Below are positions 5,502-43,542 of a stretch of DNA of 64,000 nucleotides, piece after piece (within the stretch, counting starts at the first letter, position 1; every line of letters starts with the position of its first letter). A program made the position numbers and the translations under genes. The notes beneath the pieces are model-generated. The model worked only from the letters and a program-made list of their open reading frames with translations. It was not told where the DNA came from and did no database searches. The stretch comes from Planctomycetota bacterium. GTDB taxonomy: Bacteria > Planctomycetota > JAJSAM01 > JAJVHW01. The stretch covers positions 46,272 through 110,271 of the forward strand of contig JAIOPE010000047.1 in NCBI GenBank assembly GCA_021414065.1. Direction: 5' to 3'.

Positions 5502-6029
5502 ATGAAGATCAACACGACGGTGAAGGCGGGCGGGCTCGGTTTCAACCACGCGGCGAGCGTCCGCTCGGCCGTCAAAGCCGGCGGGATGAGCGCCAACCAC
5601 GCCGCTCCGGTCCGCTCCACGGTCAAAGCGGGAGGCACCGGCGGCAACCACGCGGCGGGTGTTCGCTCGACGGTCAAGGCCGGCGGCAGCGGCGTCAACC
5701 ATGCAGCAACCGTCCGCGCCACGGTCAAGGCCGGCAGCATCGGCTTCAACCACGCCGCTCCGGTCCGCTCGACGATCAAGGCGGGAGGCCGCTGCACCAA
5801 CCACGCGGCTGGCGTCCGCTCGACGATCAAGGCGGGCGGCAGCGGCGTCAACCACGCGGCAACCGTCCGCGCCACGGTCAAGGCCGGCGGGTTCAGCTAC
5901 AACCACGCGGCTCCAGTCCGCTCGACGATCAAGGCCGGCGGCATTCGCGGCAACCACGCGGCAACCGTCCGCTCGACGGTGAAGGCCGGCGGGATCAGCC
6001 AGAACCACGCCGCGTCCGTCCGCGCCTGA
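5502..6029 (+). CDS. Small tandem-repeat protein 1 (175 aa; ~10 x 17-aa repeats NHAAxVRSTVKAGGxxx)
   Basis: ATG at 5502 preceded by GGAGA (caacGGAGAcacgaccATG). Protein is MKINTTVKAGG followed by repeated NHAA.VR[ST].VKAGG units, ending NHAASVRA*. 51-bp DNA periodicity. The track ORF 4983..6029 is over-extended. Confidence 0.8.
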   Translation: MKINTTVKAGGLGFNHAASVRSAVKAGGMSANHAAPVRSTVKAGGTGGNHAAGVRSTVKAGGSGVNHAATVRATVKAGSIGFNHAAPVRSTIKAGGRCTNHAAGVRSTIKAGGSGVNHAATVRATVKAGGFSYNHAAPVRSTIKAGGIRGNHAATVRSTVKAGGISQNHAASVRA

Positions 6030-8471
6030 TCATCCCTCCCGGCGGGGCGACGTCACTTCGACCGCCGGGGAACCAACCTCCTCGCTCGTGCCTGCGCTCC
6101 GCAGGATCTCGGCGAGGAGGTCGTGCATCGATGTGGTGCGCGGCGAGTTCCCGGCCGCAGCCAGGATGTCGATGGCGCTTCGCACCTGACGCTCGGCCTC
6201 GTCTCGCCGTCCGAGATGGTGCAGGACGCGCGCGAGCTGCCCGCGGGACATCGCGAGCCGCGGGTCGGTCGGGACGACGATCCGCGCGATGTTGTCCACC
6301 ACTTTGCGGAGCAGCACCTCCGCTTCGTCCCACCGGCCCAGGTCCGCGAGAAGCGTCGCGAAGTTGTGCATCGCCGCGACGGTCCCGATGTGGCTCTCGC
6401 CCTGGATCTCGGTGAGCACGACGAGCGACTCTCCGAGCGCCGCCTCGGCCTCGGCGTGGTGCTCGGGCCGGAGCGCCAGGATCGACCCGAGGTTCGAGAG
6501 CGTGCGAGCGACCAGCGGGTGCTTCTCGCCCAGAGTGCGACGTCGCGACGCGAGGCACTCGCGCAGGAGCGCGACCGCTTCGTCGGACGTCCGATCCACC
6601 TCCTTGATCGCGAGCGCCAGGTTGTTGCAGGAGAGTTGCGTCACCTCGTGGTCGGGACCGACGACCCGCCGTGCGCGTTCCAGCGTGTCGCGGAGGATCG
6701 TGATCGCCTCCTCGTTCCGACGCGCACAGGTGAGGGCGTGCGCCAGGTTTGACTGGAACTGGAGCGTCTCCCGGTGGTCCGGGCCGAATCGCCGGGCGGC
6801 GAGGCGCGCCACGCGCTCGAGTTCGGTCGCCGACTCCGCGAAGTCGCCCATGTAGCCGAGCGTGACGCCCAGGGCGGACCGGATCTCGATCGCCATCGGC
6901 TCCGATTCGTCGCCGGCCCGCAGCGCCGCGGCGAGCGAGCGGCGGCCCGACACGAGCGCCTCCGGCGCCTGCCCGAGCCCGAGCCGGCACGTGGTGATCG
7001 TGTAGAGCACCGACGCGAGAATCTCGGGCCGGTCGGCGAACGACCGCTCGGCGTCGTCCGCGGCGCGATTCAGCAGGTCCGCCACGCGCACGTCGCGGCC
7101 GTCGCGGTCCGGGTCGGCGGAGGCGAGCATCGACTCGAGGAACTTGCGGATGCGGTCCGCCTTCTCGCGTTCGACCTCGGCGCGGGCGAGCGCCGCGCGC
7201 GTCTCGGCCTCGCGCTCGATCGCGAGGCGTTCGTTCGCCTCGGCGCGGAGCACGGCGGAGCGGAGTTCGGCGTTCCGCGTCTGCTGCTCGACGAGCAGGT
7301 CGGTCAGGGCGCGCCCGCGCTTCACGCTGCGGAGCCCACGCTCGAGGAGCCCCGCCCGCTTCGCCCGCACCTTCCGCCCGGTGATCGCCGCACGCAGGTC
7401 GTCGGCGAACGCCGCCGCGGAGGCGTACCGCCGCTCCCGGTCCTTCTCGAGCGCGGCGAGCACGACCGTCTCGAGGTCCTTCGGGATCGCGGCGTTCAGC
7501 GCAGTCGGCGGGTCCGGCTCCCACGTCTGGATGCGGCGGAGCACCTCGTGCGTCGTCGGCCCCGGGAACGGCAGGCGGAGCGTGAGCGCTTCGTAGAGCG
7601 TGGCGCCGAGCGAGAAGACGTCGGTCCTCGCGTCGAGCGAGTCGGTCGCGCCGGACGCCTGCTCGGGGCTCGCGTAGTGCGGCGTGCCGACGAACCCGTG
7701 CGTCAGCGTGAGCGTGGCTTCGTCCTCGACCGAGGCGAGGCCGAAGTCGAAGAGCAGCGCGAACCCGTCGCGCCGCAGCAGCACGTTCGACGGCTTCACG
7801 TCGCGGTGTACGACGCCCGCGCCGTGGGCGTACGTCAGCGCGTCGGCCACGTCGATCACGGACTGCACGACCGCGCGCCACCACGGCCCGGACCACCGTT
7901 CCGGCGTCGGCGAGACTCCCGCCGCGCGTGCGAAGTCCTCGCCCGTCAGCGAAGCTGCGTCCCGCCCGCGGACCGACTGGATCGCCGCCGCGAGCGTTCC
8001 GCCTTCGACGTACGCCATCGTGAAGTACGGCTGCCCGTCGTCTTCGCCCATGTCGTAGATGGGAACGACGAGCGGGTGCGAGAGCCGCGCCACGGCTCGG
8101 GCCTCGCGCAGGAACCGTTCGCGGGCCTTCCCGGCGGCGAGTCGCCGCGGGAGCACCTTCAGGGCGACGGTGCGGCCGAGCTTCGTGTGCCGGGCGAGGT
8201 GGACCTGCCCCATCCCGCCGCGTCCGAGTTCCCGCAGGATCTCGTAGCCCGCGAACGTGGGCGCCGCGGCCGGCCGCCGCGTGACGGCCTTCGACGCGAG
8301 GTCGATCACCTCACGGAGCCGCGCGTGCAGGTCCGGCCGGTCCGGGAGCAGCGCCGCCGGGTCCGCGGCGCGTCCTTCTGCGAGGTCGGACATCACCTGT
8401 CCGAACAGCGCGTCGAGGATCGCTTCGTCGGCGTCTCCGTGGTCGTCGGCGCCGAGGTCGGGAGCCGTCAC
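6030..8471 (-). CDS. Ser/Thr protein kinase (Hanks type) with C-terminal TPR repeats, STK1
   Basis: 813 aa. Motifs GRGGMGQVHLA, VALKVL, HRDVKPSNVLL, DFGLA, GTPHYASPEQ. C-terminal ~450 aa of TPR repeats. ATGA overlap with the upstream ECF gene. Confidence 0.85.
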   Translation of the reverse strand: MTAPDLGADDHGDADEAILDALFGQVMSDLAEGRAADPAALLPDRPDLHARLREVIDLASKAVTRRPAAAPTFAGYEILRELGRGGMGQVHLARHTKLGRTVALKVLPRRLAAGKARERFLREARAVARLSHPLVVPIYDMGEDDGQPYFTMAYVEGGTLAAAIQSVRGRDAASLTGEDFARAAGVSPTPERWSGPWWRAVVQSVIDVADALTYAHGAGVVHRDVKPSNVLLRRDGFALLFDFGLASVEDEATLTLTHGFVGTPHYASPEQASGATDSLDARTDVFSLGATLYEALTLRLPFPGPTTHEVLRRIQTWEPDPPTALNAAIPKDLETVVLAALEKDRERRYASAAAFADDLRAAITGRKVRAKRAGLLERGLRSVKRGRALTDLLVEQQTRNAELRSAVLRAEANERLAIEREAETRAALARAEVEREKADRIRKFLESMLASADPDRDGRDVRVADLLNRAADDAERSFADRPEILASVLYTITTCRLGLGQAPEALVSGRRSLAAALRAGDESEPMAIEIRSALGVTLGYMGDFAESATELERVARLAARRFGPDHRETLQFQSNLAHALTCARRNEEAITILRDTLERARRVVGPDHEVTQLSCNNLALAIKEVDRTSDEAVALLRECLASRRRTLGEKHPLVARTLSNLGSILALRPEHHAEAEAALGESLVVLTEIQGESHIGTVAAMHNFATLLADLGRWDEAEVLLRKVVDNIARIVVPTDPRLAMSRGQLARVLHHLGRRDEAERQVRSAIDILAAAGNSPRTTSMHDLLAEILRSAGTSEEVGSPAVEVTSPRREG

Positions 8472-9088
8472 GCGCCCGCCGAGCCCGAGCGCAGGGCCTC
8501 CAGCGCCGCCACGTACAGGGCCGTCCCGCGCCGAAGGCGGTACCAGCCCGCGGAGAGGCCGATCCCGAGTTCCGCCACGACGTTCTCCATCGGCCTCTCT
8601 TCGAAGAGGTGAAGGCGCAGCACGGCCTCGAACTCCTCCGGGAGGCTCTCGAGCGCCTGCTGCATCAGCACCGCGCGTTCACGGTGGCTCGCGATACGAC
8701 TCGGCGTCACGGACCCCGCCGGGAACAGGTCGGTGACGGACCCGTCGGCCGGCGGGGCGAGGTCGCCGAAGCCGACGGCGGGCGTCTCGCCGCCGCGCTT
8801 TTCGGCCGACGCACGTCGCGCGATGTCGGTGACGCGGTTCCGCGCGATCGTGAGGAGCCACGAGCGGTAGTCCTTCACGCCCGTCCAGCGGTGCTGCTCG
8901 CGGTCGCGCCACGCGGCGATGAGCGTCTCCTGCCAGACGTCCTCCGCCTGGCAGCGCGCGCGGACGACCGGCCCCATCATCCGGCCGATCGCGACGAGCA
9001 CGCCGTCGGGTCCGACGCTCTCGATGAGCCGGTCCCACTGCGCGGGGTCTGCGTGCGGCGCGCCGGCGAACGTCGCGTCGTCGGTCAC
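8468..9088 (-). CDS. ECF sigma factor (ECF-a), STK-associated type
   Basis: Sigma-2 (AEDVWQETLIAAWRDREQHRW...LLTIARNRVTDIAR) and sigma-4 (LPEEFEAVLRLHLFEERPMENVVAELGIGLSAGWYRLRRG). Inferred GTG start (VTDDATF...) overlaps the TGA stop of upstream ECF-b (GTGA). Stop overlaps the STK1 start (ATGA). The track ORF (364 aa) is over-extended. Confidence 0.75.
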   Translation of the reverse strand: MTDDATFAGAPHADPAQWDRLIESVGPDGVLVAIGRMMGPVVRARCQAEDVWQETLIAAWRDREQHRWTGVKDYRSWLLTIARNRVTDIARRASAEKRGGETPAVGFGDLAPPADGSVTDLFPAGSVTPSRIASHRERAVLMQQALESLPEEFEAVLRLHLFEERPMENVVAELGIGLSAGWYRLRRGTALYVAALEALRSGSAGA

Positions 9089-9708
9089 GGCGTCCCCCGG
9101 GGCGGCTCGGACCGCGAGTCGAACCCCGCGAGCGCCGCCGCGTACGTTTCCGACGCCTTGCGGAATCGCCTCCACGCGGCCGAGAGCGAGATCGAGCGCT
9201 CCGCGGCGATCGACTCCATCGTGCGTTCCTCGAAGAGGTGCGCGGTGAGGAACTCGCGGTCGTCGTCGCCGAGCGTCGCGAGCGCGTCGGACATGCGCCG
9301 GGCCCGTTCGGAGTGATGGGCGACGCGGGACGGCGTGGTCGAACCCGCGGGGAGATACGCCTCGAACGGGGCGCTCTTCCCGCCGTCGATGTCGCCGAAC
9401 AGCCCGGTCCGCTTGGCGCCCCGCTTCACGGTCCCGAGGCTGCGGGCGATGTCGCGGATGCGGTTGCGGGCGATCGTCACGAGCCAGGTGCGGTAGGCCT
9501 CCGGCGTCTCCCAGCGGTGCTGCGCCCGGTCCCGCCACGCGAGGGCGAGGGTCTCCTGCCACACGTCCTCCGGATCACACCAAGCGCGGACGTGCGCCCC
9601 CATCGACGACGCGATCACGACGAGGAGCGAATCCGGTCCGACGGAGTCGATGAGGGCATCGAACCGGGCGGCGTCCATGTGGGGCGGAAGGGGCGTGTCG
9701 GCGGTCAT
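9085..9708 (-). CDS. ECF sigma factor (ECF-b), in tandem with ECF-a
   Basis: MTADTPLPPHMDAARFDALIDSVGPD...PEDVWQETLALAWRDRAQHRW...; sigma-4 REFLTAHLFEERTMESIAAERSISLSAAWRRFRK. ATG at 9708. 207 aa. Confidence 0.8.
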   Translation of the reverse strand: MTADTPLPPHMDAARFDALIDSVGPDSLLVVIASSMGAHVRAWCDPEDVWQETLALAWRDRAQHRWETPEAYRTWLVTIARNRIRDIARSLGTVKRGAKRTGLFGDIDGGKSAPFEAYLPAGSTTPSRVAHHSERARRMSDALATLGDDDREFLTAHLFEERTMESIAAERSISLSAAWRRFRKASETYAAALAGFDSRSEPPRGTP

Positions 9709-9861: not shown

Positions 9862-10263
9862 ATGACGAACACCACGAAGACGGTTTCCTCGGCGACGGTT
9901 CGGACTGCGGTGACGGCGGGCGGCATCCGCGCGAACCACGCGGTGCCGGTCCGCTCGGTGCTCACGGCCGGCGGCTGCAAGCCGAACCACGTCGCCCCGG
10001 TGCGCACCACGGTCGTCGCCGGCGGCGTGCGGAAGAACCACGCTCCCGTCATCCGCACGGCGGTCACCGCCGGAGGCGTGAAGAAGAACCACGCCGCCCC
10101 GGTCCGCACGGCGGTCGTCGCCGGTGGCGTGAAGATTAACCACGCTCCGGCCGTCCGCACGGCACTCACCGCCGGCGGCATCAAGGTCAACCACACCCCG
10201 GCCGTCCGCACCGCGGTCGTCGCCGGCGGCGTGAAGGCCAACCACGCCGCCTCGGTGCGGTAG
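9862..10263 (+). CDS. Small tandem-repeat protein 2 (133 aa)
   Basis: GGAGAGatgaacATG; MTNTTKTVSSATVRTAVTAGG then 17-aa NHA(A/V)PVR[ST].V.AGG repeats; ends NHAASVR*. Confidence 0.8.
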   Translation: MTNTTKTVSSATVRTAVTAGGIRANHAVPVRSVLTAGGCKPNHVAPVRTTVVAGGVRKNHAPVIRTAVTAGGVKKNHAAPVRTAVVAGGVKINHAPAVRTALTAGGIKVNHTPAVRTAVVAGGVKANHAASVR

Positions 10264-10280
10264 CCGAGAGCGGATGAACC

Positions 10281-12776: not shown

Positions 12777-12817
12777 GGGCGGAGAGTCTGTCCGCCCGAC
12801 GCGCGCCGCGCCCGCGG

Positions 12818-12848
12818 AAAACAATCTTCCGGATTCCCCGACACGTCG
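12818..12848. promoter_or_regulatory. Conserved intergenic motif, copy 3 (aacaatctTCCGGATTCCCCGACAC)
   Basis: Between the STK2 start and small gene 3. Present although no ECF gene is adjacent. Confidence 0.45.
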
Positions 12849-12937
12849 CCGCGCGGACCGGACTCCGGGGGGTGTCCTGAGCACGGTGCGACGGACGCGA
12901 GACGAAGAAGACCAACGTACGAGGCGGAGAGTCGAAC

Positions 12938-13489
12938 ATGACGAAGACGATGAAGACGGTCGCGACGACGGTGCGGACGGGCCTGAACGCAGGCGGGAAG
13001 TCGCTGAACCACGCGATCGCGGTGCGCTCGACCGTTGCCGCGGGCGGCAAACTGTTCAACCACGCCGCGACCGTTCGCAGTGCGGTAGCTTCCGGCGGGC
13101 GCACCCTGAACCACGCGGCCGCAGTGCGCTCGGCGGTTGCCGCGGGCGGCAGGCTGTTCAACCACGCGGCCGGGGTTCGCTCGACGGTTGCCGCCGGCGG
13201 CAAGATGTTCAACCACGCGATCCCGATGCGCTCGACAGTCGTCGCAGGCGGGCGGTCCCTGAACCACGCGGCGAGCGTCCGGACGGCGGTGGCCGCCGGA
13301 ACGAAGAACTTCAACCACGCCGCGAGCGTGCGAACCGCCGTGGCCGCGGGCGGGAAGAACTTCAATCACGCCGCTTCGGTTCGCACTGCGGTGGCGTCCG
13401 GCGGGCGGAACCTGAACCACGCCGCAGTCGTTCGCTCGACCGTGGCCGCGGGCAGCAGGATGTTCAACCACGCGGCGGCCGTCCGGTAG
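12938..13489 (+). CDS. Small tandem-repeat protein 3 (183 aa)
   Basis: GGCGGAGAgtcgaacATG; MTKTMKTVATTVRTGLNAGG then NHA.AVRS.VA.GG repeats. Confidence 0.8.
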   Translation: MTKTMKTVATTVRTGLNAGGKSLNHAIAVRSTVAAGGKLFNHAATVRSAVASGGRTLNHAAAVRSAVAAGGRLFNHAAGVRSTVAAGGKMFNHAIPMRSTVVAGGRSLNHAASVRTAVAAGTKNFNHAASVRTAVAAGGKNFNHAASVRTAVASGGRNLNHAAVVRSTVAAGSRMFNHAAAVR

Positions 13490-32116: not shown

Positions 32117-32169
32117 GCGCAAACTCCTTGCTGTGCATGGGTTGTCGCCGACACGCCGACCCGGGCCGC

Positions 32170-35305: not shown

Positions 35306-35973
35306 GCACCGCCCCCGCGCGACGCAGCCGAGTCGAGAGCGCGGAGCCGGTCGCGGTAGAGCGTCACGCCGCGCCGGAACCTGCGCCACGCCGCGGCGAG
35401 GTGGATTCCGAGGTCCGCTGCGATGCTCTCCATCGTGCGCCCCTCGAAGAGGTGCAGGCGGACGACCGGTTCGACGTCCGCCGGCAGTTCGTCGAGCGCA
35501 GCCAGCATGAGCCGCGACCGCTCGTTGTGCACCGCGATGCGCGACGGCGTCACGGAGCCGGCGGGCAGGATGTCGGCGAGCGACAGGCTCTCGGCCGGCT
35601 TGCGCTCGGAGAAGAGCGCCGCGCCGCGCTCCCCGCCGCGCTTCTCGGCGGACGCGGCGCGCGCCATGTCGCGCACGCGGTTCAGCGCGAGCGTCACGAT
35701 CCAGCGTCGGTACGCGGCGAGGTCCTCCCACGTGTGCGACTCACGGTCCCTCCACGCCGACGCGAGCGCCTCCTGCCAGACGTCTTCGGGCTCCATCCGC
35801 CCCCGCAACGCGGGCCCCATCGCCCGGGCGATCACGACGAGCATCGCATCCGGGCCGACGCTCTCGATGAGCGCGTCGAACCGGGCTGGGTCGCAGTGCG
35901 GGGCAGGGCCCACTTCACGCGCGGGCACGCCTGGCTCCGGCGGGTTTCCGGAGGATTGCGGCCGAATCTCCAT
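35302..35973 (-). CDS. ECF sigma factor (ECF-g)
   Basis: ATG 35973 preceded by AAGGAG (MEIRPQSSGNPPEP...HCDPARFDALIESVGPD...). PEDVWQEALASAWRDRESHTW; sigma-4 VVRLHLFEGRTMESIAADLGIHLAAAWRRFRRG. Confidence 0.8.
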   Translation of the reverse strand: MEIRPQSSGNPPEPGVPAREVGPAPHCDPARFDALIESVGPDAMLVVIARAMGPALRGRMEPEDVWQEALASAWRDRESHTWEDLAAYRRWIVTLALNRVRDMARAASAEKRGGERGAALFSERKPAESLSLADILPAGSVTPSRIAVHNERSRLMLAALDELPADVEPVVRLHLFEGRTMESIAADLGIHLAAAWRRFRRGVTLYRDRLRALDSAASRGGGA

Positions 35974-36129: not shown

Positions 36130-36768
36130 ATGAGCAAGCTCATGGCGACGAAGACGACGGTGAAGGCGGGCGGAAGCAGCCTCAACCACGCGGCGGCGGT
36201 CCGGTCGGCGGTCAAGGCCGGCGGACTCAGCACGATCAACCACGCGGCGGGTATCCGGTCCACGGTCAAGGCCGGCGGGCTCAGCAGCATCAATCACGCC
36301 GCGGGTGTCCGGTCCACGGTCAAGGCCGGTGGACTCAGCACCATCAACCACGCCGCGGCCGTGCGCTCGACCATCCGCAGCGGCGGCTGGGGCAACCACG
36401 CCGCGGTCGTGCGGTCCACGGTCAAGGCCGGCGGCGGCGGCAACAACCACGCGGCTGTCGTTCGCACCGAGATCCAGTCCGGCGGCTGGGCGAACCACGC
36501 CGCGGGCGTGCGTTCCTCGGTCAAGGCCGGCGGCCTCAACAGCGTCAACCACGCCGCGGGCGTGCGTTCGACCATCCGTAGCGGCGGCTGGAACAACCAC
36601 GCGGCCATCGTCCGCACGGCTGTCCAGTCCGGCGGATGGACGAACCACGCCGCGGGCGTGCGTTCCTCGGTGAAGGCGGGCGGGCTCAGCAGCATCAACC
36701 ACGCCGCGGGCGTGCGCTCGACCATCCGCAGCGGCGGATGGAGCAATCACGCGGCTCAGGTCCGCTGA
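36130..36768 (+). CDS. Small tandem-repeat protein 9 (212 aa; 17-18-aa repeat variant with GGL(S/N)xxI/GGW)
   Basis: caacAGGAGAcgagacgATG; MSKLMATKTTVKAGGSSL then NHAA.[VI]RS.[VI].[AS]GG repeats; ends NHAAQVR*. Confidence 0.8.
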   Translation: MSKLMATKTTVKAGGSSLNHAAAVRSAVKAGGLSTINHAAGIRSTVKAGGLSSINHAAGVRSTVKAGGLSTINHAAAVRSTIRSGGWGNHAAVVRSTVKAGGGGNNHAAVVRTEIQSGGWANHAAGVRSSVKAGGLNSVNHAAGVRSTIRSGGWNNHAAIVRTAVQSGGWTNHAAGVRSSVKAGGLSSINHAAGVRSTIRSGGWSNHAAQVR

Positions 36769-36775: not shown

Positions 36776-39325
36776 TCACGCGAGGCGGGCGCGCAACAAC
36801 GGCGCCCGCCCGCCGCGCTCCTCGATGCGTCGCGCGACGCCCTCGACTTCGCTCCGGACCCGCGGGTCCGAGCAGAGGGCGAGGGCGTCGATCGCTGACG
36901 CCTCGGCCGCTGCGACGTCTCCCGCGAGGACTCGGGCGAACGCGAGCATCGCCGCCGACAGGCCGCGTTCGATCGCGTCGCCTGCGTCGATCCTTGCCGC
37001 CGACGCCACGGCTTCTTCGGCGACGGCGACGGCTCCCGCGATGTCGCCCGACTCGGCGCGCATCCGGCAGAGGTAGCGCAACACGACGCCGATCCGCACG
37101 TCGGTGGACGCATACACGCAGCGCCACGCGGCGACGGTCGCCTCCTCGATCGCCAGCGCTTCGGGGAGCCGCCCGAGCGCTCGCAGCATCCGCGCGTGGT
37201 TGTGCCGCGCGAGCAGCGTCACTTTGTGCTCCGGACCGAGCAGGTCGCATGCGATGGCGCACACCTCCGCCTGCAACGCCTCGGCCTCGACGATTCGTCC
37301 GGCGTCGAGGAGGTAGCCGGCGAGTGCGCCCGCCGTCCGGAACGTCTCCGGGTGGCGATCGCCGAGCACGCGGCGGCGCCCCTCGTAGCAGTGCGTGTAG
37401 AGCGCGCCGGTCTCCGGCGCGTCGTGGTGTCGCACCGAGATCGCGAAGCCGAGCATGTTCTCGCACGAGAGCGTGGTGAGGTGGTCCGGTCCGAGACCCG
37501 CGCGGCAACGCGCGAGGACGTCGCGGAGTTCCGGCTCCGATTCGTCGCGCCGATTCAGGAGCGTCAGCGCGAACCCGCGGGCGCTGCGCCACGCGAGCGT
37601 TCGTGCGTCGCCGGGACCGAACACGCGGCCGCCGATCGCAGCGAGCGCCGAGAACTCGGCCTCGGCGGCAGCTATCCGGCCCGTCTCGGCGAGGCACTCG
37701 GCGTAGATCTCGCGGACGTCGCAGGTGCGGCCGTGGTCGTCGCCGAAGGCACTCCGCGCTGCGACGAGCGCCCGTTCGGCGACGCGGCGGGCATCGGCGT
37801 ACCGGCCGAGACCGACGAGCGTGCGCGCGATCGTCACGTACAGATCCACCGCCACTTCCGGCCGCGCCGCGAACTTCGCCGCGGCGTCCGTCTCCGCACG
37901 CCCCAGGAGATCGGCCACACGCACGTCGCGCGCGCCCTGCGTCGGGTCGGCCGAAGCGAGCAGGTTCTGGAGGAACTGCACGACGTCCTTCGCGTTGTCG
38001 CGTTCGACGATCGCGCCGCGCCGCTCCCGGTCCGCCTCTTCCCGCGCCGCGCGCGCATCGGCTTCGTTTCGCTCGGCGCGCAACACCGCGGAGCGCAACT
38101 CCTCGTTGCGCGTCTGCTGCTCGACGAGCAGTTCCGTGAGTGCCCGGTGGCGCTTCACCATCCGGAGCCCGCGTTCGAAGACGCCCGCCCGGCGCGCGCG
38201 GACCGGCCCGCCGTCGAGGAACGCGCGCAGATCGTCGGCGAACGCCGCAGCCGACGCGTACCGCTTCGCGCGGTCCTTCTCGAGAGCGCAGAGGACGACC
38301 GTCTCCAGATCCTCCGGCACGTCGGCGGCGAGTTTCGACGGTGCCCGCGGGTCCCAGGTCTGGACGCGTCGCAGGATCTCCTGCGGCGTGGGCCCGGGGA
38401 ACGGGACGTCGAGCGTGAGCGCCTCGTAGAGCGTCGCGCCGAGTGAGAACACGTCGCTCTGCGCGTCGAGCGAGTCGGTCCCGCCCGCCGCCTGTTCGGG
38501 GCTCGCGTACTGCGGCGTTCCGAGGAACCCGTTCGTGAGCGTGAGCGGGCTCTCGTCTTCCACGTCGGCCAGCCCAAAGTCGAGCAGGAGCGCGAATCCG
38601 TCGGGGCGGAGCATCACGTTCGACGGCTTCACGTCGCGGTGGACGACGCCGTGCGCGTGAGCGTGCGCCAGCGCATCGGCGACGTCGATCGCCGCCTGCA
38701 CCACCGCTCGCACCCACGACTCCCGCCAGCGCTCCGGGGCGATCCCCGCGATGCCTGCGGCGCGTGCGAACGCGCTGCCGTCTCTCGAACCCCCGCCGCT
38801 CGCGCCGCGGACCGCCGAGAGCGCCTGCGAGAGCGTCCGGCCCTCGACGTACGCCATGGAGAACCAGGGCTGACCGTCGTCGCCGTCGAGTCCGTCGCCG
38901 ATGCCGTGGATCGGGACGATGAGCGGGTGCGAGAGTCGCGCGATCGCGCGCGCCTCGCGGAGGAACCGGTCCTTCGACTTCGGCCCCGTGAGACGCCGTG
39001 GCAGCACCTTCAGGGCGACCGTCCGCCCGAGGCGCAGATCCACGGCCAGGTAGACGTGCGCCATCCCGCCGCGTCCGAGTTCACGCACGACCCGGTGCCC
39101 CGCCACGATCGGTTGCGCCGCCGCGCCGCGCTTCGGAGCCACGTCTCGCGCGATCGCGAGCACCTCGCGGACCCGATCGCGCAGGTCGGGGCGTCCGGGG
39201 ACCGCCGCGTCGGGGTCGATGTCGCGACCGGCGGCGAGATCCGCCAGGAACCGGACCATGAGGCCGTCGAGCAGGGCGTCGTCGGGGTCGTCGCTCGCGT
39301 CGTCGGCGGCGCCTGCAGGAGTCAC
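36776..39325 (-). CDS. Ser/Thr protein kinase with C-terminal TPR repeats, STK9
   Basis: GTG start (VTPAGAADDASDDPDDALLDGL...) overlapping the ECF-h stop. GRGGMAHVYLA, HRDVKPSNVML, DFGLA. Confidence 0.8.
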   Translation of the reverse strand: MTPAGAADDASDDPDDALLDGLMVRFLADLAAGRDIDPDAAVPGRPDLRDRVREVLAIARDVAPKRGAAAQPIVAGHRVVRELGRGGMAHVYLAVDLRLGRTVALKVLPRRLTGPKSKDRFLREARAIARLSHPLIVPIHGIGDGLDGDDGQPWFSMAYVEGRTLSQALSAVRGASGGGSRDGSAFARAAGIAGIAPERWRESWVRAVVQAAIDVADALAHAHAHGVVHRDVKPSNVMLRPDGFALLLDFGLADVEDESPLTLTNGFLGTPQYASPEQAAGGTDSLDAQSDVFSLGATLYEALTLDVPFPGPTPQEILRRVQTWDPRAPSKLAADVPEDLETVVLCALEKDRAKRYASAAAFADDLRAFLDGGPVRARRAGVFERGLRMVKRHRALTELLVEQQTRNEELRSAVLRAERNEADARAAREEADRERRGAIVERDNAKDVVQFLQNLLASADPTQGARDVRVADLLGRAETDAAAKFAARPEVAVDLYVTIARTLVGLGRYADARRVAERALVAARSAFGDDHGRTCDVREIYAECLAETGRIAAAEAEFSALAAIGGRVFGPGDARTLAWRSARGFALTLLNRRDESEPELRDVLARCRAGLGPDHLTTLSCENMLGFAISVRHHDAPETGALYTHCYEGRRRVLGDRHPETFRTAGALAGYLLDAGRIVEAEALQAEVCAIACDLLGPEHKVTLLARHNHARMLRALGRLPEALAIEEATVAAWRCVYASTDVRIGVVLRYLCRMRAESGDIAGAVAVAEEAVASAARIDAGDAIERGLSAAMLAFARVLAGDVAAAEASAIDALALCSDPRVRSEVEGVARRIEERGGRAPLLRARLA

Positions 39326-39954
39326 GCGCCTCCTCCTAGAGGCAGGCGCGAAGCGGCTTCGAGCGCCACGAGGCGCTCGCGGTAGATCGTCACGCCCTTG
39401 CGCAGCCGCCGCCAGGCCGCCGCGAGGTGGATGCCGAGTTCCTCGGCGATCGACTCCATCGTGCGGTCCTCGAACAGATGGAGGCGCACGACCGGTTCGA
39501 CGTCGGCCGGCAGCTCGTCGAGCGCCGCGAGCATCAGGCGCGACCGCTCGTTGTGCTGCGCCACGCGCGACGGCGTGACCGACCCGGCCGGCAGGACGTC
39601 GGCGAGCGACACGCTCTCGGCCGGCTTCCGCTCGGAGAAGAGCCCGGTCGCGTTCTCGCCGCCGCGCTTCAGTCGCGACCCGGCCCGCGCCAGATCGTGG
39701 ATGCGGTTCTTCGCGATCACCACGAGCCAGCGCCGGTAGGCCGTCGGGCTCTCCCACGTGTGCGTCGCGCGGTCCTTCCACGCCGACGCCAGCGTCTCCT
39801 GCCAGACGTCCTCCGGCTCGAAGCGCCCGCGCAGCGCAGGACCCATCGCTCGCGCGATGATCACGAGGATCTCCTCCGGGCCGACGCTCTCGAGGAGCGC
39901 GTCGAACCGCGCGGGGTCCATGTGCGGCGGAAGGTCTGGGGAGGGTTCGGTCAT
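39322..39954 (-). CDS. ECF sigma factor (ECF-h)
   Basis: ATG 39954 (MTEPSPDLPPHMDPARFDALLESVGPE...). PEDVWQETLASAWKDRATHTW; sigma-4 VVRLHLFEDRTMESIAEELGIHLAAAWRRLRKG. Confidence 0.8.
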   Translation of the reverse strand: MTEPSPDLPPHMDPARFDALLESVGPEEILVIIARAMGPALRGRFEPEDVWQETLASAWKDRATHTWESPTAYRRWLVVIAKNRIHDLARAGSRLKRGGENATGLFSERKPAESVSLADVLPAGSVTPSRVAQHNERSRLMLAALDELPADVEPVVRLHLFEDRTMESIAEELGIHLAAAWRRLRKGVTIYRERLVALEAASRLPLGGGA

Positions 39955-40110: not shown

Positions 40111-40500
40111 ATGACGAGCACGAACAAGATGATGGTGAAGACAACGATCACGGCGGGCGGCGTGAAGATGAACCACGCGCCGGTGATCCGGTCCGGCGTC
40201 GCCGCAGGCGGCTACCGCATGAACCATGCGGCGCAGGTCCGCGCCACCGTGCGCGCCGGGGGCATCTCGATGAACCACGCCCCCGTGATCCGGTCCGGCG
40301 TCACGGCCGGCGGCCGGACGATGAACCACGCTGCGGCCGTGCGGTCCGGCGTCGCCGCGGGAGGCGCCCGGATGAACCACGCGGCTCAGGTCCGCGTGGC
40401 CATCCGAGCCGGCGGGCTCAAGATGAACCACGCCCCCGTGATCCGGTCCGGCGTCGCCGCGGGCGGCTTCCGCATGAACCACGCGACGTCGGCGCGCTGA
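40111..40500 (+). CDS. Small tandem-repeat protein 10 (129 aa)
   Basis: cacGGAGAGatgaccATG; MTSTNKMMVKTTITAGG then NHA..[VI]RSGV.AGG..M repeats; ends NHATSAR*. Confidence 0.8.
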   Translation: MTSTNKMMVKTTITAGGVKMNHAPVIRSGVAAGGYRMNHAAQVRATVRAGGISMNHAPVIRSGVTAGGRTMNHAAAVRSGVAAGGARMNHAAQVRVAIRAGGLKMNHAPVIRSGVAAGGFRMNHATSAR

Positions 40501-40504: not shown

Positions 40505-42916
40505 TCACGCGCCTCCACGCAGCGCGGCGGCGAGGAGTTCCTCCGCCGCGCTGCGGCTTCGTCCGCCCGACGGCTCCGCCTTGATCCACGCCGCGACGGC
40601 GCGGCGCGCGACGGACAACGTCTCCTCAGTCGGACCTTCCGCCGCCATGAGCACGCGCCCGAGTTGCGCGAGCGCGAAGCGCGCGTGATACGAGTCTTCG
40701 CCGAGCGTGCGCACCGAGGCCTCCGCGACGTGCCGCTGCGCGGAGACCGCTTCGGCGGCGCGGCCCAAGTCGAGGAGCACGCCGCAGAGGTTGTGCTCCG
40801 CGATGAGCGCCGACGGGTGATCCGGGCCGAGTCGCTCGCGCCCGCCATCGTACGCAGCGCGCAGTACGGGCTCCGCTTCCGCGAGCCGCCCGGCCTCCTT
40901 CAACGTCTGTCCGTACATCATGCACGACATCAGAGTGTCCGGGTGTGCGACGCCGAGGGCGCGCCGCCGCGACTCCCACGCCGCGCGCAGCACGTCGAGG
41001 GCTTCGTCGCGCCGAGCGCCGCGCGACAGCAGAAAACCGAGGTTGTGCGTCACGAGGAGCGTCGCCGGGTCGTCCGCGCCGAGCACGCGCGTGGACACGT
41101 CGAGGGCCCGCCGGAGGACGCCCTCCGCCTCCGGCATGCGCCCGGCGTCGCTCAGTCCCTGACCGTAGTCGCCGAGACACCGCGCCGTGGCCGGATGCTC
41201 CGGACCGAACACGCGCTCCGACGACTCCAGCGCCCGGCCGAGCGGCCCGAGCGCCGCCTCGATGTCGCCGCTCTCCCACAGCGTCTGCCCGTACGTCGTC
41301 TCCCACTCGATGCGAAGCGGATCGTCCGCGTCCAGCGCGCTCGTCGCCCGGGTGTGCGCATCGCGTGCCAGTTCAAGCCCCTCGCTGTACAGCCCGAGCC
41401 CGACGAGCGTCGAGACGATCGCCCGTTCGACCGAGAGCCGCAGTGCGGGGTCGGCGTCGAGCGACTGTCGGGCGCGCAGGGCGGCGCTGGTCAAGACGTC
41501 GGCCACACGGACGTCGCGTCCGGAGATCGAGGGGTCGGCAGACGACAGAGCATCTTCGAGGAATGAAAGCACCGTGCGGACCCGTGCGCTCTCCTCGCGC
41601 GACTTCCTCGCCTCGTCGTCGGCGCGGCGGCGCTCTTCCTCGGCCCGCTCCTGCGCCGCGCGCGCCGCGGCCTCCTCGCGTTCGGCACGGAGCACGAGCG
41701 CGCGCAACTCCGCGTTCCGGGCCTGCTGCTCGACGAGCAGGTCCGTCAGCGCGCGTCCGCGCTTCACGCTCCGCAGACCGCGTTCGAGGAGCCCGGCCCG
41801 CTTCGCCCGCACTCGTTTCCCGTCGAGCGCAGCACGGAGGTCGTCCGCGAACGCCGCCGCGGTCGCGTAGCGCTTCGCGCGGTCCTTCTCGAGAGCGGCG
41901 AGGATGACCGTCTCCAGGTCCTTCGAAACGCCGGCGTTCCGGGCCGACGGCGGTTCCGGCTCCCACGTCTGGATGCGACGCAGCACCTCGTGCGTGGTGG
42001 GCCCGGGGAACGGGAGCTCCAGCGTCAACGCCTCGTACAGCGTCGCGCCGAGCGAGAACACGTCCGACTGCGCGTCGAGGCTCGACGTCTCGCCCGCCGC
42101 CTGCTCGGGACTCGCGTAGTGCGGCGTGCCGACGAACCCGTGCGTCAGCGTGAGCGTGGCTTCGTCGTCCACCGACGCGAGTCCGAAGTCGAAGAGCAAC
42201 GCGAACCCGTCGCGGCGGAGCAACACGTTCGACGGCTTCACGTCGCGATGGACCACGCCGAGCCCGTGGGCGTAGGAGAGCGCATCGGCCACGTCGATCA
42301 CCGCCTGCACCGCGGCCCGCGTCCACGCGCCGGCCCACCGCTCCGGCGGTGTACCGGCAAAGCCCGCGCCCCGGGCGAAGTCCGCCCCGGTGAGCGCCGC
42401 CGGGTCGCGCCCGCGCACCGCGTGGATCGCGGAGGCGAGCGTCCCGCCCTCGACGTACGCCATCGTGAAGAACGGCTGCCCGTCGTCTTCGCCGAGGTCG
42501 TAGATGGGCACGATCAGCGGGTGCTGGAGACGCGCGACGGCCCGCGCCTCGCGCTGGAACCGATCGCGCGCCTTCCCCGCCGCGAGGCGCCGCGGGAGCA
42601 CCTTCAGCGCGACGGTGCGCCCGAGCTTCCGGTGGCGCGCGAGCAGCACCTGCCCCATCCCGCCGCGCCCGAGTTCACGGACGATCTCGTACCCGGCGAA
42701 CGTGGGCCGCTCCGGAGGCCGCCGCGGCGCGATCTCGCGCGCGATTTCGACGATTTCCACAACGCGAAAACGAAGGTCCGGGCGCTCCGGGAGGAGCAGC
42801 GCCGGATCGACGGCACGGCCATCCGAGAAGTCGCGCACGACGCGGTCGAGGAGCGCGTCCAGGAGCGCCTCGTCGTCGGATGTGCCAGGGTCGGAGGCTG
42901 CTCGGTCGTCCGTCAT
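40505..42916 (-). CDS. Ser/Thr protein kinase with C-terminal TPR repeats, STK10
   Basis: ATG start (MTDDRAASDPGTSDDEALLDALL...) overlapping the ECF-i stop (ATGA 42913-42916). GRGGMGQVLLA, HRDVKPSNVLL, DFGLA. Confidence 0.8.
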   Translation of the reverse strand: MTDDRAASDPGTSDDEALLDALLDRVVRDFSDGRAVDPALLLPERPDLRFRVVEIVEIAREIAPRRPPERPTFAGYEIVRELGRGGMGQVLLARHRKLGRTVALKVLPRRLAAGKARDRFQREARAVARLQHPLIVPIYDLGEDDGQPFFTMAYVEGGTLASAIHAVRGRDPAALTGADFARGAGFAGTPPERWAGAWTRAAVQAVIDVADALSYAHGLGVVHRDVKPSNVLLRRDGFALLFDFGLASVDDEATLTLTHGFVGTPHYASPEQAAGETSSLDAQSDVFSLGATLYEALTLELPFPGPTTHEVLRRIQTWEPEPPSARNAGVSKDLETVILAALEKDRAKRYATAAAFADDLRAALDGKRVRAKRAGLLERGLRSVKRGRALTDLLVEQQARNAELRALVLRAEREEAAARAAQERAEEERRRADDEARKSREESARVRTVLSFLEDALSSADPSISGRDVRVADVLTSAALRARQSLDADPALRLSVERAIVSTLVGLGLYSEGLELARDAHTRATSALDADDPLRIEWETTYGQTLWESGDIEAALGPLGRALESSERVFGPEHPATARCLGDYGQGLSDAGRMPEAEGVLRRALDVSTRVLGADDPATLLVTHNLGFLLSRGARRDEALDVLRAAWESRRRALGVAHPDTLMSCMMYGQTLKEAGRLAEAEPVLRAAYDGGRERLGPDHPSALIAEHNLCGVLLDLGRAAEAVSAQRHVAEASVRTLGEDSYHARFALAQLGRVLMAAEGPTEETLSVARRAVAAWIKAEPSGGRSRSAAEELLAAALRGGA

Positions 42917-43542
42917 TCGGGCCGCGGTGCCGACGAAACCGAGCGAAGCGCCCGCAACCGTTGCGCGTACAAGGCCGCGCCGCGGCGGTAGCGGTGCCAA
43001 GCGGCCGACACGCCGATGCTCAGCTCGGCGGCGACCTCCTCCATCGGCTTCTCTTCGAGCAGGTGCAGGCGCAGCACGGGTTCGACGTCGTCCGGCAGTG
43101 CGGCCAGCGCGTCGAGCACGATCCGCGACCGCTCCCGCGCCCCCGCCACGCGGCTCGGCGTGACGGACCCCGGCGGCAGCATCTGCGACAGCGACGTGCC
43201 GGACGGCGAACCCATCTCGGAGAACAGCTCGTGCTTCGCGCCGCCGCCGCGCTTCTCCCGCGAGATCGACCGGGCGATGTCGCGCACGCGGTTCCGGGCG
43301 ATCGCGAGGAGCCACCGGCGGTAGTTCGAGACGTCGATCCACGCGTGCTGTTCGCGGTCGCGCCACGCCAGAGCGAGCGCTTCCTGCCAGACGTCTTCCG
43401 GCGCGCAGTACGCGAGCACCGACGCTCCCATCATGCGGTGGACGACCGCGATCGCGGTGTCGGGCCCGGCGGCTTCGATCACGAGGTCGAACTGCGACGG
43501 ATCAGCGTGCGGCGCGGCGCCCTCGAACGCGGTATCGGTCAT
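42913..43542 (-). CDS. ECF sigma factor (ECF-i)
   Basis: 209-aa ORF as in the track (MTDTAFEGAAPHADPSQFDLVIEAAGPD...PEDVWQEALALAWRDREQHAW...; sigma-4 VLRLHLLEEKPMEEVAAELSIGVSAAWHRYRRG). Confidence 0.8.
   Translation of the reverse strand: MTDTAFEGAAPHADPSQFDLVIEAAGPDTAIAVVHRMMGASVLAYCAPEDVWQEALALAWRDREQHAWIDVSNYRRWLLAIARNRVRDIARSISREKRGGGAKHELFSEMGSPSGTSLSQMLPPGSVTPSRVAGARERSRIVLDALAALPDDVEPVLRLHLLEEKPMEEVAAELSIGVSAAWHRYRRGAALYAQRLRALRSVSSAPRPE

What the first reader, a model, noticed from the sequence alone, without database searches (positions are those of the whole stretch)
5502..43542. Ten-fold iterated module pairing an ECF sigma / Ser-Thr kinase (TPR) operon with a divergent gene for a 17-residue-tandem-repeat mini-protein
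Ten paralogous plus-strand genes start at 5502, 9862, 12938, 16362, 21222, 24923, 28703, 32270, 36130 and 40111 and encode 109-212 aa. Each protein is essentially only a short Thr/Lys-rich N-terminus (M-x-K-T-T-x-K-T-x-x-T-x-AGG) followed by 6-11 degenerate copies of a 17-aa unit, x-x-x-N-H-A-A-x-V-R-[ST]-x-V-x-A-G-G. None has a signal peptide or TM segment. Each has a near-identical strong SD (GGAGA, 6-8 nt spacing).

Each gene is transcribed divergently from a minus-strand operon of an ECF sigma factor and a Hanks-type kinase with a long TPR sensor-like tail. Each is also convergent with the next kinase. I do not recognise this repeat protein as belonging to any described family. Such tight, repeated genomic coupling to sigma/kinase signalling pairs is unusual. 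It suggests the mini-protein is the regulated output (sigma target) and/or the substrate of the module.
Basis: seen in the sequence. Interest (0 to 1): 0.85.

Follow-up and report, generated by a model that had tools for sequence, protein, structure and literature searches.

The report
Repeat-peptide genes with exporter and kinases
Ten unannotated genes in a Planctomycetes genome encode proteins made only of a 17-residue repeat; they belong to an undescribed, widespread family that always sits beside a peptide-cleaving exporter and a TPR protein, and here each copy has its own receptor-like kinase, which suggests a ten-channel secreted-peptide sensing system.

Summary
Ten plus-strand genes encode 109-212-aa proteins made only of 17-aa units (85 units; Asn-His and Arg invariant), and codon patterns show selection at the protein level. 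The interpretation needs correcting in three ways. (1) Only 9 sigma genes accompany the 10 kinases: two sit in tandem, and K2 and K3 have none. (2) The conserved unit is convergent, [sigma>kinase> <mini], not divergent; single-copy modules in two other genomes show this. Exporter, TPR protein and repeat genes recur together in unrelated lineages, where the regulator is a sigma-54 activator or a LuxR-type protein instead. No Pfam or NCBIfam model covers the repeat family. All relatives are "hypothetical", and the ten window genes are absent from a 15-billion-protein collection. AlphaFold finds no fold. My best reading is exported, possibly Gly-Gly-cleaved repeat peptides whose production is coupled to PknS/EcfK-like kinase-sigma pairs through the TPR tails. 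ECF-kinase pairs are already known; the peptide family and its ten-fold array are new. Function is inferred, not shown.

The parts
237..2966 (-). Peptidase_C39 + ABC_membrane + ABC_tran exporter (PCAT, 909-aa ORF)
   Evidence: Pfam. The oxyanion Gln, Cys (DCG), His (THF) and Asp (MDP) align to PCAT1/ComA. It is 46-49% identical to the PCATs of relatives' cassettes and 74-80% to L067. Best NCBIfam match is TIGR03796 at 190 bits, below the 853 cutoff.
2963..4150 (-). HlyD-family membrane-fusion (adaptor) protein; start approximate
   Evidence: HlyD_3/HlyD_D23. One TM helix. 34-40% identical to the adaptor of relatives' cassettes and 66% to L067.
4231..5361 (+). Stand-alone cytoplasmic TPR_12/TPR_10 protein (376 aa), a conserved cassette partner
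   Evidence: Pfam. No TM helix. 41-48% identical to the TPR protein in L019, L021, L065, L066 and L069.
5502..6029 (+). mini m1 (175 aa, 10 units)
6030..8471 (-). kinase K1 (Pkinase + TPR; TM core deleted)
8468..9708 (-). Two tandem ECF-type sigma genes: S1a 8468-9088 and S1b 9085-9708, with 4-nt overlaps
9862..10263 (+). mini m2 (133 aa, 7 units)
10281..12884 (-). kinase K2 (TM helix retained; no sigma gene upstream)
12938..13489 (+). mini m3 (183 aa, 10 units)
13533..16103 (-). kinase K3 (TM helix retained; no sigma gene upstream)
16362..16808 (+). mini m4 (148 aa, 8 units)
16866..20068 (-). kinase K4 (TM retained; ~16866-19445) and sigma S4 (19442-~20068)
21222..21551 (+). mini m5 (109 aa, 6 units)
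21596..24765 (-). kinase K5 (~21596-24124) and sigma S5 (24121-~24765)
24923..25468 (+). mini m6 (181 aa, 10 units)
25480..28529 (-). kinase K6 (~25480-27897) and sigma S6 (27894-28529)
28703..29149 (+). mini m7 (148 aa, 8 units; its 3' end overlaps the K7 stop by 35 nt)
29115..32122 (-). kinase K7 (~29115-31490) and sigma S7 (31487-~32122, TTG start)
32270..32653 (+). mini m8 (127 aa, 7 units)
32672..35973 (-). kinase K8 (~32672-35305) and sigma S8 (35302-~35973)
36130..36768 (+). mini m9 (212 aa, 12 units of 16/17/18 aa)
36776..39954 (-). kinase K9 (~36776-39325) and sigma S9 (39322-~39954)
40111..40500 (+). mini m10 (129 aa, 7 units)
40505..43542 (-). kinase K10 (~40505-42916) and sigma S10 (42913-43542; 100% match to NCBI K8T90_06455)
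5388..5501 (+). Example of the conserved upstream block found before every mini: palindrome GAAATC-N4-GATTTC, CCGACA-N17-CGCTC, a 5-nt-loop hairpin and a GGAG SD. The others lie at 9756-9861, 12815-12937, 16255-16361, 21117-21221, 24818-24922, 28593-28702, 32171-32269, 36023-36129 and 40000-40110.
   Evidence: Alignment A1. nhmmer hits only these ten sites. The hairpin has z -2.3 to -4.2 in 8 of 10. The block is conserved upstream of the L067 ortholog, and the promoter blocks also upstream of the L068 mini.

Best explanation
The ten mini-proteins belong to an undescribed family of all-repeat small proteins. I infer that they are cargo of a dedicated C39-peptidase ABC exporter, with a HlyD adaptor in this diderm. 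Each protein reads as Met + a short 'xTVKAGG' element, then n x [xxxNHAAxVR + S/T-x-V-x-A-G-G], and it stops right after a final '...VR'. This (spacer-core)n layout is what a multi-copy peptide precursor cut after Gly-Gly would look like, but whole-protein export after a single cut is equally allowed.

A cytoplasmic TPR protein is a constant partner and probably binds the unfolded repeats, as a chaperone or adaptor. In this Planctomycetes lineage the usual regulator of the cassette (a sigma-54 activator or LuxR-type protein elsewhere) has been replaced. In its place are Hanks kinases carrying the same TPR subtype as a sensor tail, mostly co-transcribed with an ECF-type sigma. This architecture matches the characterised PknS/EcfK pair.

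The module [sigma>kinase> <mini] was then amplified ten-fold. Each mini acquired its own residues at the variable unit positions, and each kinase a strongly diverged TPR tail. The proposed logic is as follows. The TPR tail binds its cognate repeat peptide: outside the cell for the TM-bearing K2-K4, inside for the TM-less K1 and K5-K10. The kinase then activates a sigma, and the sigma drives the shared mini-gene promoter. Unavoidable convergent transcription into the kinase operon would add negative coupling.

Shown: the gene content, the conserved synteny, the intact catalytic residues, the topology classes and the promoter motif. Inferred: export, cleavage, TPR-peptide binding, sigma phosphorylation and promoter dependence.
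For: Family and novelty: a profile search of 1.84e9 representatives gave 229 hits, the best at only 89 bits, and 124 of the top 150 have periodic NH units. A second profile found 593 proteins, all 'hypothetical'. No Pfam or NCBIfam family covers them.

Exporter link: PCAT + TPR + repeat genes co-occur in the window, L019/L020, L021, L065 (an Actinophytocola MAG), L066, L067 and L069, in fragmentary form in L064, and in one further contig without DNA (PCAT there lacks a C39 call and the TPR lies beyond the listed genes). Orthology to the window is PCAT E 1e-145 to 1e-171 and TPR E ~1e-60. The C39 catalytic residues are intact. The C39 domain is ~59% identical across cassettes, against ~47% for the whole transporter.

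Kinase/sigma link: L067 has MFP>PCAT>ABC2>sigma>kinase co-directional with overlapping junctions, followed by a convergent 69-aa mini that carries the same promoter and hairpin. L068 and L069 show sigma>kinase> <mini. All ten kinases keep their catalytic motifs.

Diversification: TPR tails differ by 59-82% while kinase domains differ by 16-49%. Identity at variable unit positions is 0.37 within a gene and 0.15 between genes.

Promoter: the motif occurs only before the ten minis, and no sigma-70-like promoter is found in 5300-25200.

Precedent: PknS (TM kinase with periplasmic TPR) phosphorylates EcfK (PMC13147305). Convergent overlap: stop-to-stop gaps are 0-57 nt, one pair overlaps by 35 nt, and terminators are at chance level.
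Against: The residues before each GG (A-12, R-8, S/T-7) do not fit the canonical PCAT leader consensus L-12/E-8/L-7 (PMC6959990); only the GG matches. The N-terminal 'leader' would be only 11-21 aa.

No export, cleavage or binding is demonstrated. Similarity between the kinase TPR tails and the partner TPR protein (27-34%) is no more than generic TPR_12 resemblance.

The co-phylogeny test of minis against kinase or TPR was not significant (best r=0.19, p=0.10). The ten promoters are nearly identical although the sigmas are only ~50-56% identical, which argues against ten orthogonal channels at the promoter level.

The motif is absent upstream of the sigma operons, so there is no autoregulation signature. 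K2 and K3 have no sigma. The sigmas retain the acidic sigma-2.2 motif, so the ECF43-type phospho-switch does not apply. The homolog in L016 shows no exporter, TPR, sigma or kinase in the 7.5 kb available on its upstream side.
Confidence: 0.55

Rival explanations
1. The mini-proteins stay in the cell and act as regulators or substrates of the kinases. The kinase phosphorylates the Arg-Ser/Thr site in every unit, or the repeats titrate the TPR tail and so act like an anti-kinase or anti-sigma factor. The exporter is then only a neighbour.
For: Position 11 is Ser/Thr in 58 of 64 units and follows an invariant Arg. Seven of ten kinases are cytoplasmic, and the partner TPR protein is cytoplasmic too. 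Linkage is tight, with 0-57-nt gaps. Kinase-linked ECF groups typically lack anti-sigma factors (PMC7826278).
Against: The same Ser/Thr is conserved in relatives whose cassettes contain no kinase at all. Exporter co-occurrence spans phyla. The single-copy, apparently ancestral kinases have a TM helix that places the TPR outside the cell.
Confidence: 0.2
2. The mini-proteins are exported intact and assemble outside the cell into a repetitive beta-rich structure (a solenoid, amyloid-like fibre or surface layer). The ten paralogs would be structural variants, and the kinases would monitor envelope status.
For: The periodicity is strict. The first AlphaFold model shows two short strands per unit. 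Mini m6 has a supra-threshold hit to the GlmU-type hexapeptide left-handed beta-helix model (35 bits against a 23.3 cutoff). Type-I-like exporters often carry repeat proteins (background knowledge).
Against: Both AlphaFold runs are low-confidence (pLDDT 55 and 49, pTM 0.43 and 0.22), and the deeper 79-sequence alignment gave mostly coil. Most relatives have only 2-5 units, too few for a stable solenoid. The hexapeptide hit appears for only 1-2 of the paralogs.
Confidence: 0.12
3. The minis are precursors of a post-translationally modified peptide (RiPP) or a bacteriocin. The invariant Asn-His-...-Arg would mark the modification or activity site. The locus would then serve inter-bacterial competition rather than signalling.
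For: The PCAT's nearest named family is the NHLP bacteriocin exporter. The TPR partner's nearest NCBIfam models are RiPP-system TPR proteins (FxSxx_TPR, HaaT). A conserved 490-aa unknown protein accompanies the sigma-54-type cassettes. Multi-core precursors exist but are rare (PMC5934393).
Against: No recognisable modifying enzyme or immunity gene is present in the window. The 490-aa protein has no homolog in the window and no gene of that size lies in the Actinophytocola cassette. All NCBIfam matches are far below their cutoffs.
Confidence: 0.13

Closest known systems
PknS/EcfK (Xanthomonas citri) and PknT/EcfP (Vibrio parahaemolyticus): Hanks receptor kinase plus ECF43 sigma
   Same: A sigma gene is co-transcribed with a Hanks kinase that has a TM helix and a C-terminal TPR sensor region (as in K2-K4, L068 and L069). 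There is no anti-sigma gene. A conserved Ser/Thr block sits in the sigma-2/sigma-4 linker, where EcfK is phosphorylated (PMC13147305).
   Different: The sigmas here keep the acidic sigma-2.2 motif instead of ECF43's 'QTTA'. Seven kinases have lost the TM helix. Two kinases lack a sigma. The output and partner is a repeat-peptide gene plus exporter, not a type VI secretion system.
Double-glycine peptide export by PCAT/AMS transporters (PCAT1-CtA, ComAB-CSP, CvaAB-colicin V, NHLP/Nif11 bacteriocin export systems)
   Same: A C39 Cys-His-Asp peptidase is fused to an ABC exporter, with a HlyD adaptor in diderms. Small cargo genes lie adjacent. Gly-Gly motifs are present in the cargo (PMC6959990).
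   Different: The cargo is an all-repeat protein with a GG in every 17-19-aa unit, and it lacks the canonical L-12/E-8/L-7 leader. A TPR protein is an obligatory partner. The NCBIfam score is far below the equivalog cutoff (190 against 853 bits).
Multi-core or multi-copy peptide precursors (three-core microviridin AMdnA, cyanobactins, fungal alpha-factor and ustiloxin-type repeats)
   Same: One polypeptide carries many near-identical short units separated by a constant recognition or spacer element (PMC5934393).
   Different: There is no leader domain and no known modifying enzyme. Up to 12 copies occur, with ten paralogous genes, and no processing has been demonstrated.
Peptide quorum-sensing circuits with repeat-domain receptors (RRNPP family; convergent prgQ/prgX of pCF10)
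   Same: In concept, a secreted peptide is sensed by a cognate TPR-type receptor encoded next to it, and the peptide and receptor genes are transcribed convergently (background knowledge; analogy only).
   Different: The receptor is a Ser/Thr kinase rather than a DNA-binding or phosphatase protein. The organism is a Planctomycete. No sequence homology was tested or claimed.

Membership tests
ECF43 (kinase-activated ECF sigma factors) | Genomic co-occurrence with a Hanks-type kinase | tested here: met
   Eight of ten kinases have one or two sigma genes immediately upstream, with 4-nt overlaps.
ECF43 (kinase-activated ECF sigma factors) | The acidic sigma-2.2 motif DxxDxxQE is replaced by uncharged residues with a conserved phospho-Thr ('QTTA') | tested here: not met
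   All nine sigmas read [E/D/Q/A]-x-[E/D]-D-[VI]-W-Q-E; criterion taken from PMC13147305.
ECF sigma factors (general) | [quoted passage not shown] | tested here: met
   Sigma70_r2 and Sigma70_r4_2 hits, TIGR02937 at 38 bits (just below its 42.9 cutoff), best subfamily TIGR02984 Planctomycete-type at 56 bits; 195-215 aa.
Kinase-linked planctomycetal ECF groups (ECF59-62, ECF217/267/283) | Assignment by the ECF-classification HMMs | not testable with these tools
   The ECF Hub models are not available here. Only the literature statement that such groups exist could be used (PMC7826278).
Hanks-type Ser/Thr kinases | Gly-loop, VAIK Lys, HRD catalytic loop, DFG, APE/SPE | tested here: met
   All motifs are present in K1-K10; only the strict G-loop pattern misses in K6. 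Pkinase E 1e-35 to 1e-42.
Peptidase-containing ABC transporters (PCAT/AMS) | N-terminal C39 domain with catalytic Cys, His, Asp and oxyanion Gln | tested here: met
   Alignment to PCAT1 (4RY2) and ComA shows Q, DCG, THF and MDP conserved.
Peptidase-containing ABC transporters (PCAT/AMS) | The substrate carries the canonical leader L(-12)xxxE(-8)L(-7)xxxxG(-2)G(-1) | tested here: not met
   The units have A(-12), R(-8) and S/T(-7); only the GG is present (one search compared with PMC6959990). Relatives' C-terminal tails match E-8/L-7/V-4/xG.
NHLP-type bacteriocin export system (TIGR03794/03796/03797) | Scores above the equivalog cutoffs | tested here: not met
   190 bits against 853 for the PCAT, and 46 against 156 for the adaptor.
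Left-handed beta-helix / hexapeptide repeat proteins | Confident beta-helix fold and a hexapeptide signature in all members | tested here: not met
   PF24894 is above its cutoff only for m6. AlphaFold pLDDT is 55 and 49.
Known anti-phage defence systems (PADLOC) | System-specific protein models matched by more than the generic kinase domain | tested here: not met
   Only the kinase domain hits PD-T4-6/mad6 models. The sigma, the mini and the unknown ORFs give nothing.

The most novel reading that the evidence does not exclude
This would be a previously unrecognised kind of bacterial peptide communication or self-recognition system. A polyprotein of 6-12 short peptides is exported and cut at Gly-Gly by a dedicated PCAT. 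Each peptide 'flavour' is read by its own TPR-tailed Ser/Thr receptor kinase, which switches on an ECF sigma. Ten parallel channels are encoded in one Planctomycetes locus. The underlying peptide/TPR/PCAT cassette is an undescribed secreted-peptide family spread across several phyla.
Probability: 0.25. Interest if true: 0.9.

Novelty: new variant of a known kind. Interest (0 to 1): 0.74.

Why it matters
If the reading is right, three things follow. First, it defines a new, phylogenetically broad family of exporter-linked repeat peptides (more than 590 database members, none annotated or named). Gene callers can miss this family entirely, as they did for all ten genes here.

Second, it gives a candidate ligand and output for the abundant but functionally opaque ECF-kinase pairs of Planctomycetes. 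That makes the long-standing question of what these kinases sense directly testable with synthetic 10-17-mer peptides.

Third, it offers a natural example of a signalling module amplified ten-fold with diversified ligand and sensor parts. Such a set is of interest for studying how orthogonal channels evolve and for synthetic biology.

Even on the more modest readings (bacteriocin or structural protein), the conserved mini + TPR + PCAT cassette is an uncharacterised system worth naming.

Tried and rejected
(1) Indexed protein search with m6 gave no hits. The 8000-candidate prefilter was flooded by low-complexity words, so I treated this as a weak negative and replaced it with the exhaustive HMMER search.

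I replaced it with a periodic DNA pattern, AACCACGC-N43 three times over. In genome contigs this gave 18 loci, of which only L016 is a true homolog. In metagenome contigs it gave 41 loci with no true homolog; all are unrelated simple repeats.

(3) Beta-solenoid hypothesis: two AlphaFold runs, both low-confidence. I did not run a fold search because the models are unreliable.

(4) Mantel co-phylogeny of minis against kinase or TPR, for both pairings: not significant. The pairing was settled by comparative synteny instead.

(5) A regular-expression promoter search was too permissive in 72% GC DNA (72 hits). I replaced it with an nhmmer profile.

Individual folds with shuffle controls were used instead.

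(7) A search for a sigma-54 promoter in L019 and L021 found none; only L016 has one.

(8) No ABC2 partner was found at the window's left edge.

(9) The look-up of the window's own sigma returned only a 7-kb Logan contig, so the NCBI annotation of the mini positions could not be viewed directly.

(10) The Jogler 2012 paper on planctomycetal kinase-linked ECFs is not held.

(11) A PADLOC defence identity was rejected; only generic kinase-domain hits appeared.

Full report
OBSERVATION. Translating from the ten stated starts gives ten clean ORFs of 109-212 aa. Anchoring on Asn-His splits them into 85 units, of which 64 are exactly 17 aa. m9 alternates 16- and 18-aa units, and m7 has one 22-aa unit. 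In the 64 canonical units N4 and H5 are invariant, R10 is 63/64, G16 62/64 and A15 60/64, and position 11 is Ser or Thr in 58/64. Every protein begins with Met plus a half-unit ending in AGG, and every protein ends right after '...NH-x-x-x-(V/A)-R', with Arg or Arg-Ala as the last residues. A three-unit DNA pattern occurs 25 times in the window against 0 in shuffles.

The genes are under protein-level selection. Between genes, unit identity by codon position is 0.64, 0.76 and 0.49. The invariant Arg is written with five codons including AGG, and Gly and Ala with four each. An invariant GGAG lies 8 nt before each ATG. The unit count is 6-12 rather than 6-11, and the description of the neighbours is only partly right.

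NEIGHBOURS. tblastn with window-derived queries finds ten Pkinase+TPR genes but only nine sigma paralogs. Two sigmas sit in tandem ahead of K1 (8468-9088 and 9085-9708). K2 and K3 have no sigma upstream. An extra 323-aa ORF lies between S4 and m5. m1 is preceded by a plus-strand TPR gene, not by a sigma. All kinases keep their catalytic motifs. K2-K4 have a TM helix directly after the kinase domain, whereas K1 and K5-K10 share a clean 15-residue deletion that removes it. The array therefore mixes receptor-type kinases with an external TPR and cytoplasmic ones. Stop codons of each mini and its convergent kinase are 0-57 nt apart, and one pair overlaps by 35 nt. Terminator-like sites occur at chance level (6 found, 5.9 expected), so convergent transcripts must overlap.

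Immediately left of the array are three genes. The first is a 909-aa Peptidase_C39 + ABC exporter (237-2966, minus strand). The second is a HlyD adaptor (2963-~4150, minus strand). The third is a 376-aa TPR_12/TPR_10 protein (4231-5361, plus strand). The C39 domain aligns to PCAT1 and ComA with the oxyanion Gln, the Cys, the His and the Asp all conserved. It is therefore predicted to be an active double-glycine protease, unlike the degenerate domain of HlyB-type transporters.

THE FAMILY. Pfam and NCBIfam have no model for the minis; only m6 crosses a hexapeptide-repeat threshold. A profile of the ten proteins searched against 1.84 billion representatives gave 229 hits, with the best at only 89 bits. 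Of the top 150, 124 are small proteins with 2-7 NH-anchored units of 17-21 aa. These are mostly 19-aa units of the form xxxNH[NS]E[AT]L[RQ]VR[ST]A[VL]KAGG, starting MKIRTQLKAGG. A profile of those relatives found 593 proteins, every one unnamed or 'hypothetical' and nearly all from metagenomes; they too lack any Pfam or NCBIfam family. Many relatives carry a basic C-terminal tail (...DRLELLVVRAGLRAGRR...) that the window proteins lack. None of the ten window proteins is in the 15-billion-sequence collection by exact look-up. The sigma next to them is present, as a protein of an NCBI 'MAG: Planctomycetes bacterium' (K8T90_06455, 110.5-kb contig). The ten genes are therefore effectively unannotated.

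CONSERVED CONTEXT. Genomic look-ups of relatives give a consistent cassette. In L019/L020, L021, L066 and one contig without DNA it is: a divergent sigma-54 activator, an adaptor, a PCAT, a second ABC protein, 2-5 tandem repeat genes, a 490-aa unknown and a ~380-aa TPR protein. In an Actinophytocola MAG (L065) it is: a divergent AAA_16-GerE regulator, a mini, a TPR protein, a PCAT and an ABC protein.

The window's PCAT, adaptor and TPR protein are orthologous to these, at 46-49%, 34-40% and 41-48% identity, with E values down to 1e-171. The C39 domain is the best-conserved part of the transporter, at about 59% identity even to the actinobacterial copy. So the invariant partners of the repeat genes are the exporter and the TPR protein, while the regulator is lineage-specific. 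None of these non-planctomycetal cassettes contains an ECF sigma or a kinase.

THE KINASE-SIGMA LINK AND ITS GEOMETRY. Close homologs of the window's sigma lead to two other genomes. In L067 (GCA_034680565.1) the adaptor, PCAT, ABC2, sigma (77% to S10) and kinase (67% to K10) are co-directional with overlapping junctions. They are followed by a convergent 69-aa mini of three 17-aa units ending in ...NHAAVGR, and then by another sigma-kinase pair. The palindrome, promoter blocks, hairpin and SD upstream of that mini match those of m10.

In GCA_031409275.1, L068 is a lone sigma>kinase> <mini module. The gene divergent from its sigma is unrelated, and the mini promoter blocks recur there as GCAACAC-N16-CGCTCT. 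L069 has sigma>kinase> <mini <ABC <PCAT <adaptor, then a TPR protein. A more distant sigma-kinase pair (L070) has no mini.

The conserved unit is therefore convergent, [sigma>kinase> <mini]. In the window this pairs all ten minis with all ten kinases and leaves none over. The divergent reading would orphan m1 and S10. The single-copy kinases carry the TM helix, so the receptor form is probably ancestral and the TM-less clade (K1, K5-K10 and L067) derived.

REGULATORY DNA. All ten minis share an upstream block: a palindrome (GAAATC-N4-GATTTC), then CCGACA-N17-CGCTC, then a short hairpin, then an A-rich stretch with GGAG. An nhmmer profile of this block hits only those ten sites in the window. 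It does not hit upstream of the sigma operons, the exporter or the TPR gene. The hairpin is more stable than shuffles in 8 of 10 cases (z -2.3 to -4.2), and the stems differ in sequence between copies. No sigma-70-type promoter is detected in 5300-25200. This fits an alternative-sigma promoter, but it does not show which sigma is used.

SIGMA TYPE. The closest characterised architecture is PknS/EcfK of X. citri and PknT/EcfP of V. parahaemolyticus (ECF43). There a TM Hanks kinase with a periplasmic TPR region phosphorylates its sigma in region 2.2 and in the linker (PMC13147305). The window sigmas keep the acidic 2.2 motif ([E/D]xEDVWQE), so they fail ECF43's defining 'QTTA' signature. Their sigma-2/sigma-4 linker, normally variable, contains a near-invariant LPAGSVTPSRVA block, which is a candidate phosphosite by analogy only. 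Other kinase-linked ECF groups are known, several of them planctomycetal (PMC7826278). I could not run that classification.

STRUCTURE. AlphaFold on the ten-paralog alignment gave pLDDT 55, with two short strands per unit. On a relative with 79 aligned sequences it gave pLDDT 49 and pTM 0.22, with coil through the repeats and a helix only in the tail. This gives no support to a folded solenoid and fits a disordered precursor, although AlphaFold can miss amyloid-like folds.

MECHANISM. Shown: the gene content, the synteny, the intact catalytic sites, the two kinase topologies, the diversified TPR tails (59-82% different, against 16-49% for kinase domains), the gene-specific residues at variable unit positions (identity 0.37 within genes, 0.15 between) and the shared promoter.

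Inferred: the minis are cargo of the PCAT. The (spacer-core)n layout, a start with ...AGG and an end with ...VR all suggest cutting after Gly-Gly, possibly at every unit. The TPR partner and the kinase TPR tails bind the repeats. The kinases activate the sigmas, which drive the mini promoters. Convergent transcription couples mini and kinase expression negatively.

The main weakness is that the residues before each GG do not match the canonical leader consensus L-12/E-8/L-7 (PMC6959990). In addition, the co-phylogeny test was not significant, and the near-identity of the ten promoters argues against ten orthogonal outputs.

VERDICT. ECF-kinase pairs and PCAT exporters are known kinds. What is new is the repeat-peptide family with its obligatory TPR and PCAT partners, its recruitment to kinase-sigma control in Planctomycetes, and its ten-fold amplification. 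I rate it a new variant of a known kind, interest about 0.74. There is a one-in-four chance that it is a truly new multi-channel peptide-sensing system.

Noticed in passing
window 20100-21071 (-): An extra 323-aa ORF with coding-like codon-position GC, one TM helix and a TPR-like C-terminus. It has no Pfam, NCBIfam or PADLOC family. It lies between sigma S4 and mini m5, and this is the only module with an added gene.
   Followed up: partly
window 43603-46545 (-): Directly right of the array lie a 572-aa protein with an N-terminal TM helix and no family, and a rhomboid intramembrane protease fused to TPR_16. A membrane protease next to a putative peptide-precursor array could take part in processing.
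   Followed up: no
window 8468-9708 (-); 10281-16103 (-): Two tandem sigma paralogs with 4-nt overlaps precede K1, while the next two kinases (K2 and K3) have none. The count (9 sigmas for 10 kinases) suggests that sigmas are shared or reassigned.
   Followed up: partly
window 16362-16808, 24923-25468, 40111-40500, 36130-36768: There is a higher-order two-unit (34-aa) period. Units i and i+2 are more alike than neighbours in m4 (0.82 against 0.64), m6 and m10. m9 alternates 18-aa '...KAGGLSxI' and 16-aa '...RSGGWx' units.
   Followed up: partly
relatives P0152 etc.; L019 6730-8441, L021 6656-8372: Most 19-aa-unit relatives end in a conserved, Arg-rich tail '...ISMRRQPRTT..DRLELLVVRAGLRAGRR'. 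It is predicted helical and matches the canonical double-Gly leader positions E-8/L-7/V-4/xG, but it sits at the C-terminus. The window proteins lack it.
   Followed up: partly
L016 459-473 (-): The only other 17-aa-unit homolog in the genome collection (a MAG labelled Pseudomonadota, 74% GC) has a sigma-54-type promoter, TGGCACG-N4-ATGCA, upstream. It shows no exporter, TPR, sigma or kinase in the 7.5 kb available.
   Followed up: partly
L019 9324-10796; L021 8455-9900; L066 8851-10323: A conserved 481-490-aa protein with no Pfam or NCBIfam family sits between the repeat genes and the TPR gene in the sigma-54-type cassettes. It has no homolog in the window, and no gene of that size is in the Actinophytocola cassette. 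It is a candidate modifying enzyme.
   Followed up: no
L071 (Logan contig of the same organism): An independent public assembly of the same organism breaks inside kinase K10. Arrays of this kind are therefore likely to be under-assembled, as well as under-annotated, in metagenomes.
   Followed up: no
window 47508-49311: A Crp-like HTH regulator and a MarR-GNAT fusion lie a few kb right of the array. The palindrome upstream of every mini gene could be a site for a dimeric regulator of this sort. This was not tested.
   Followed up: no
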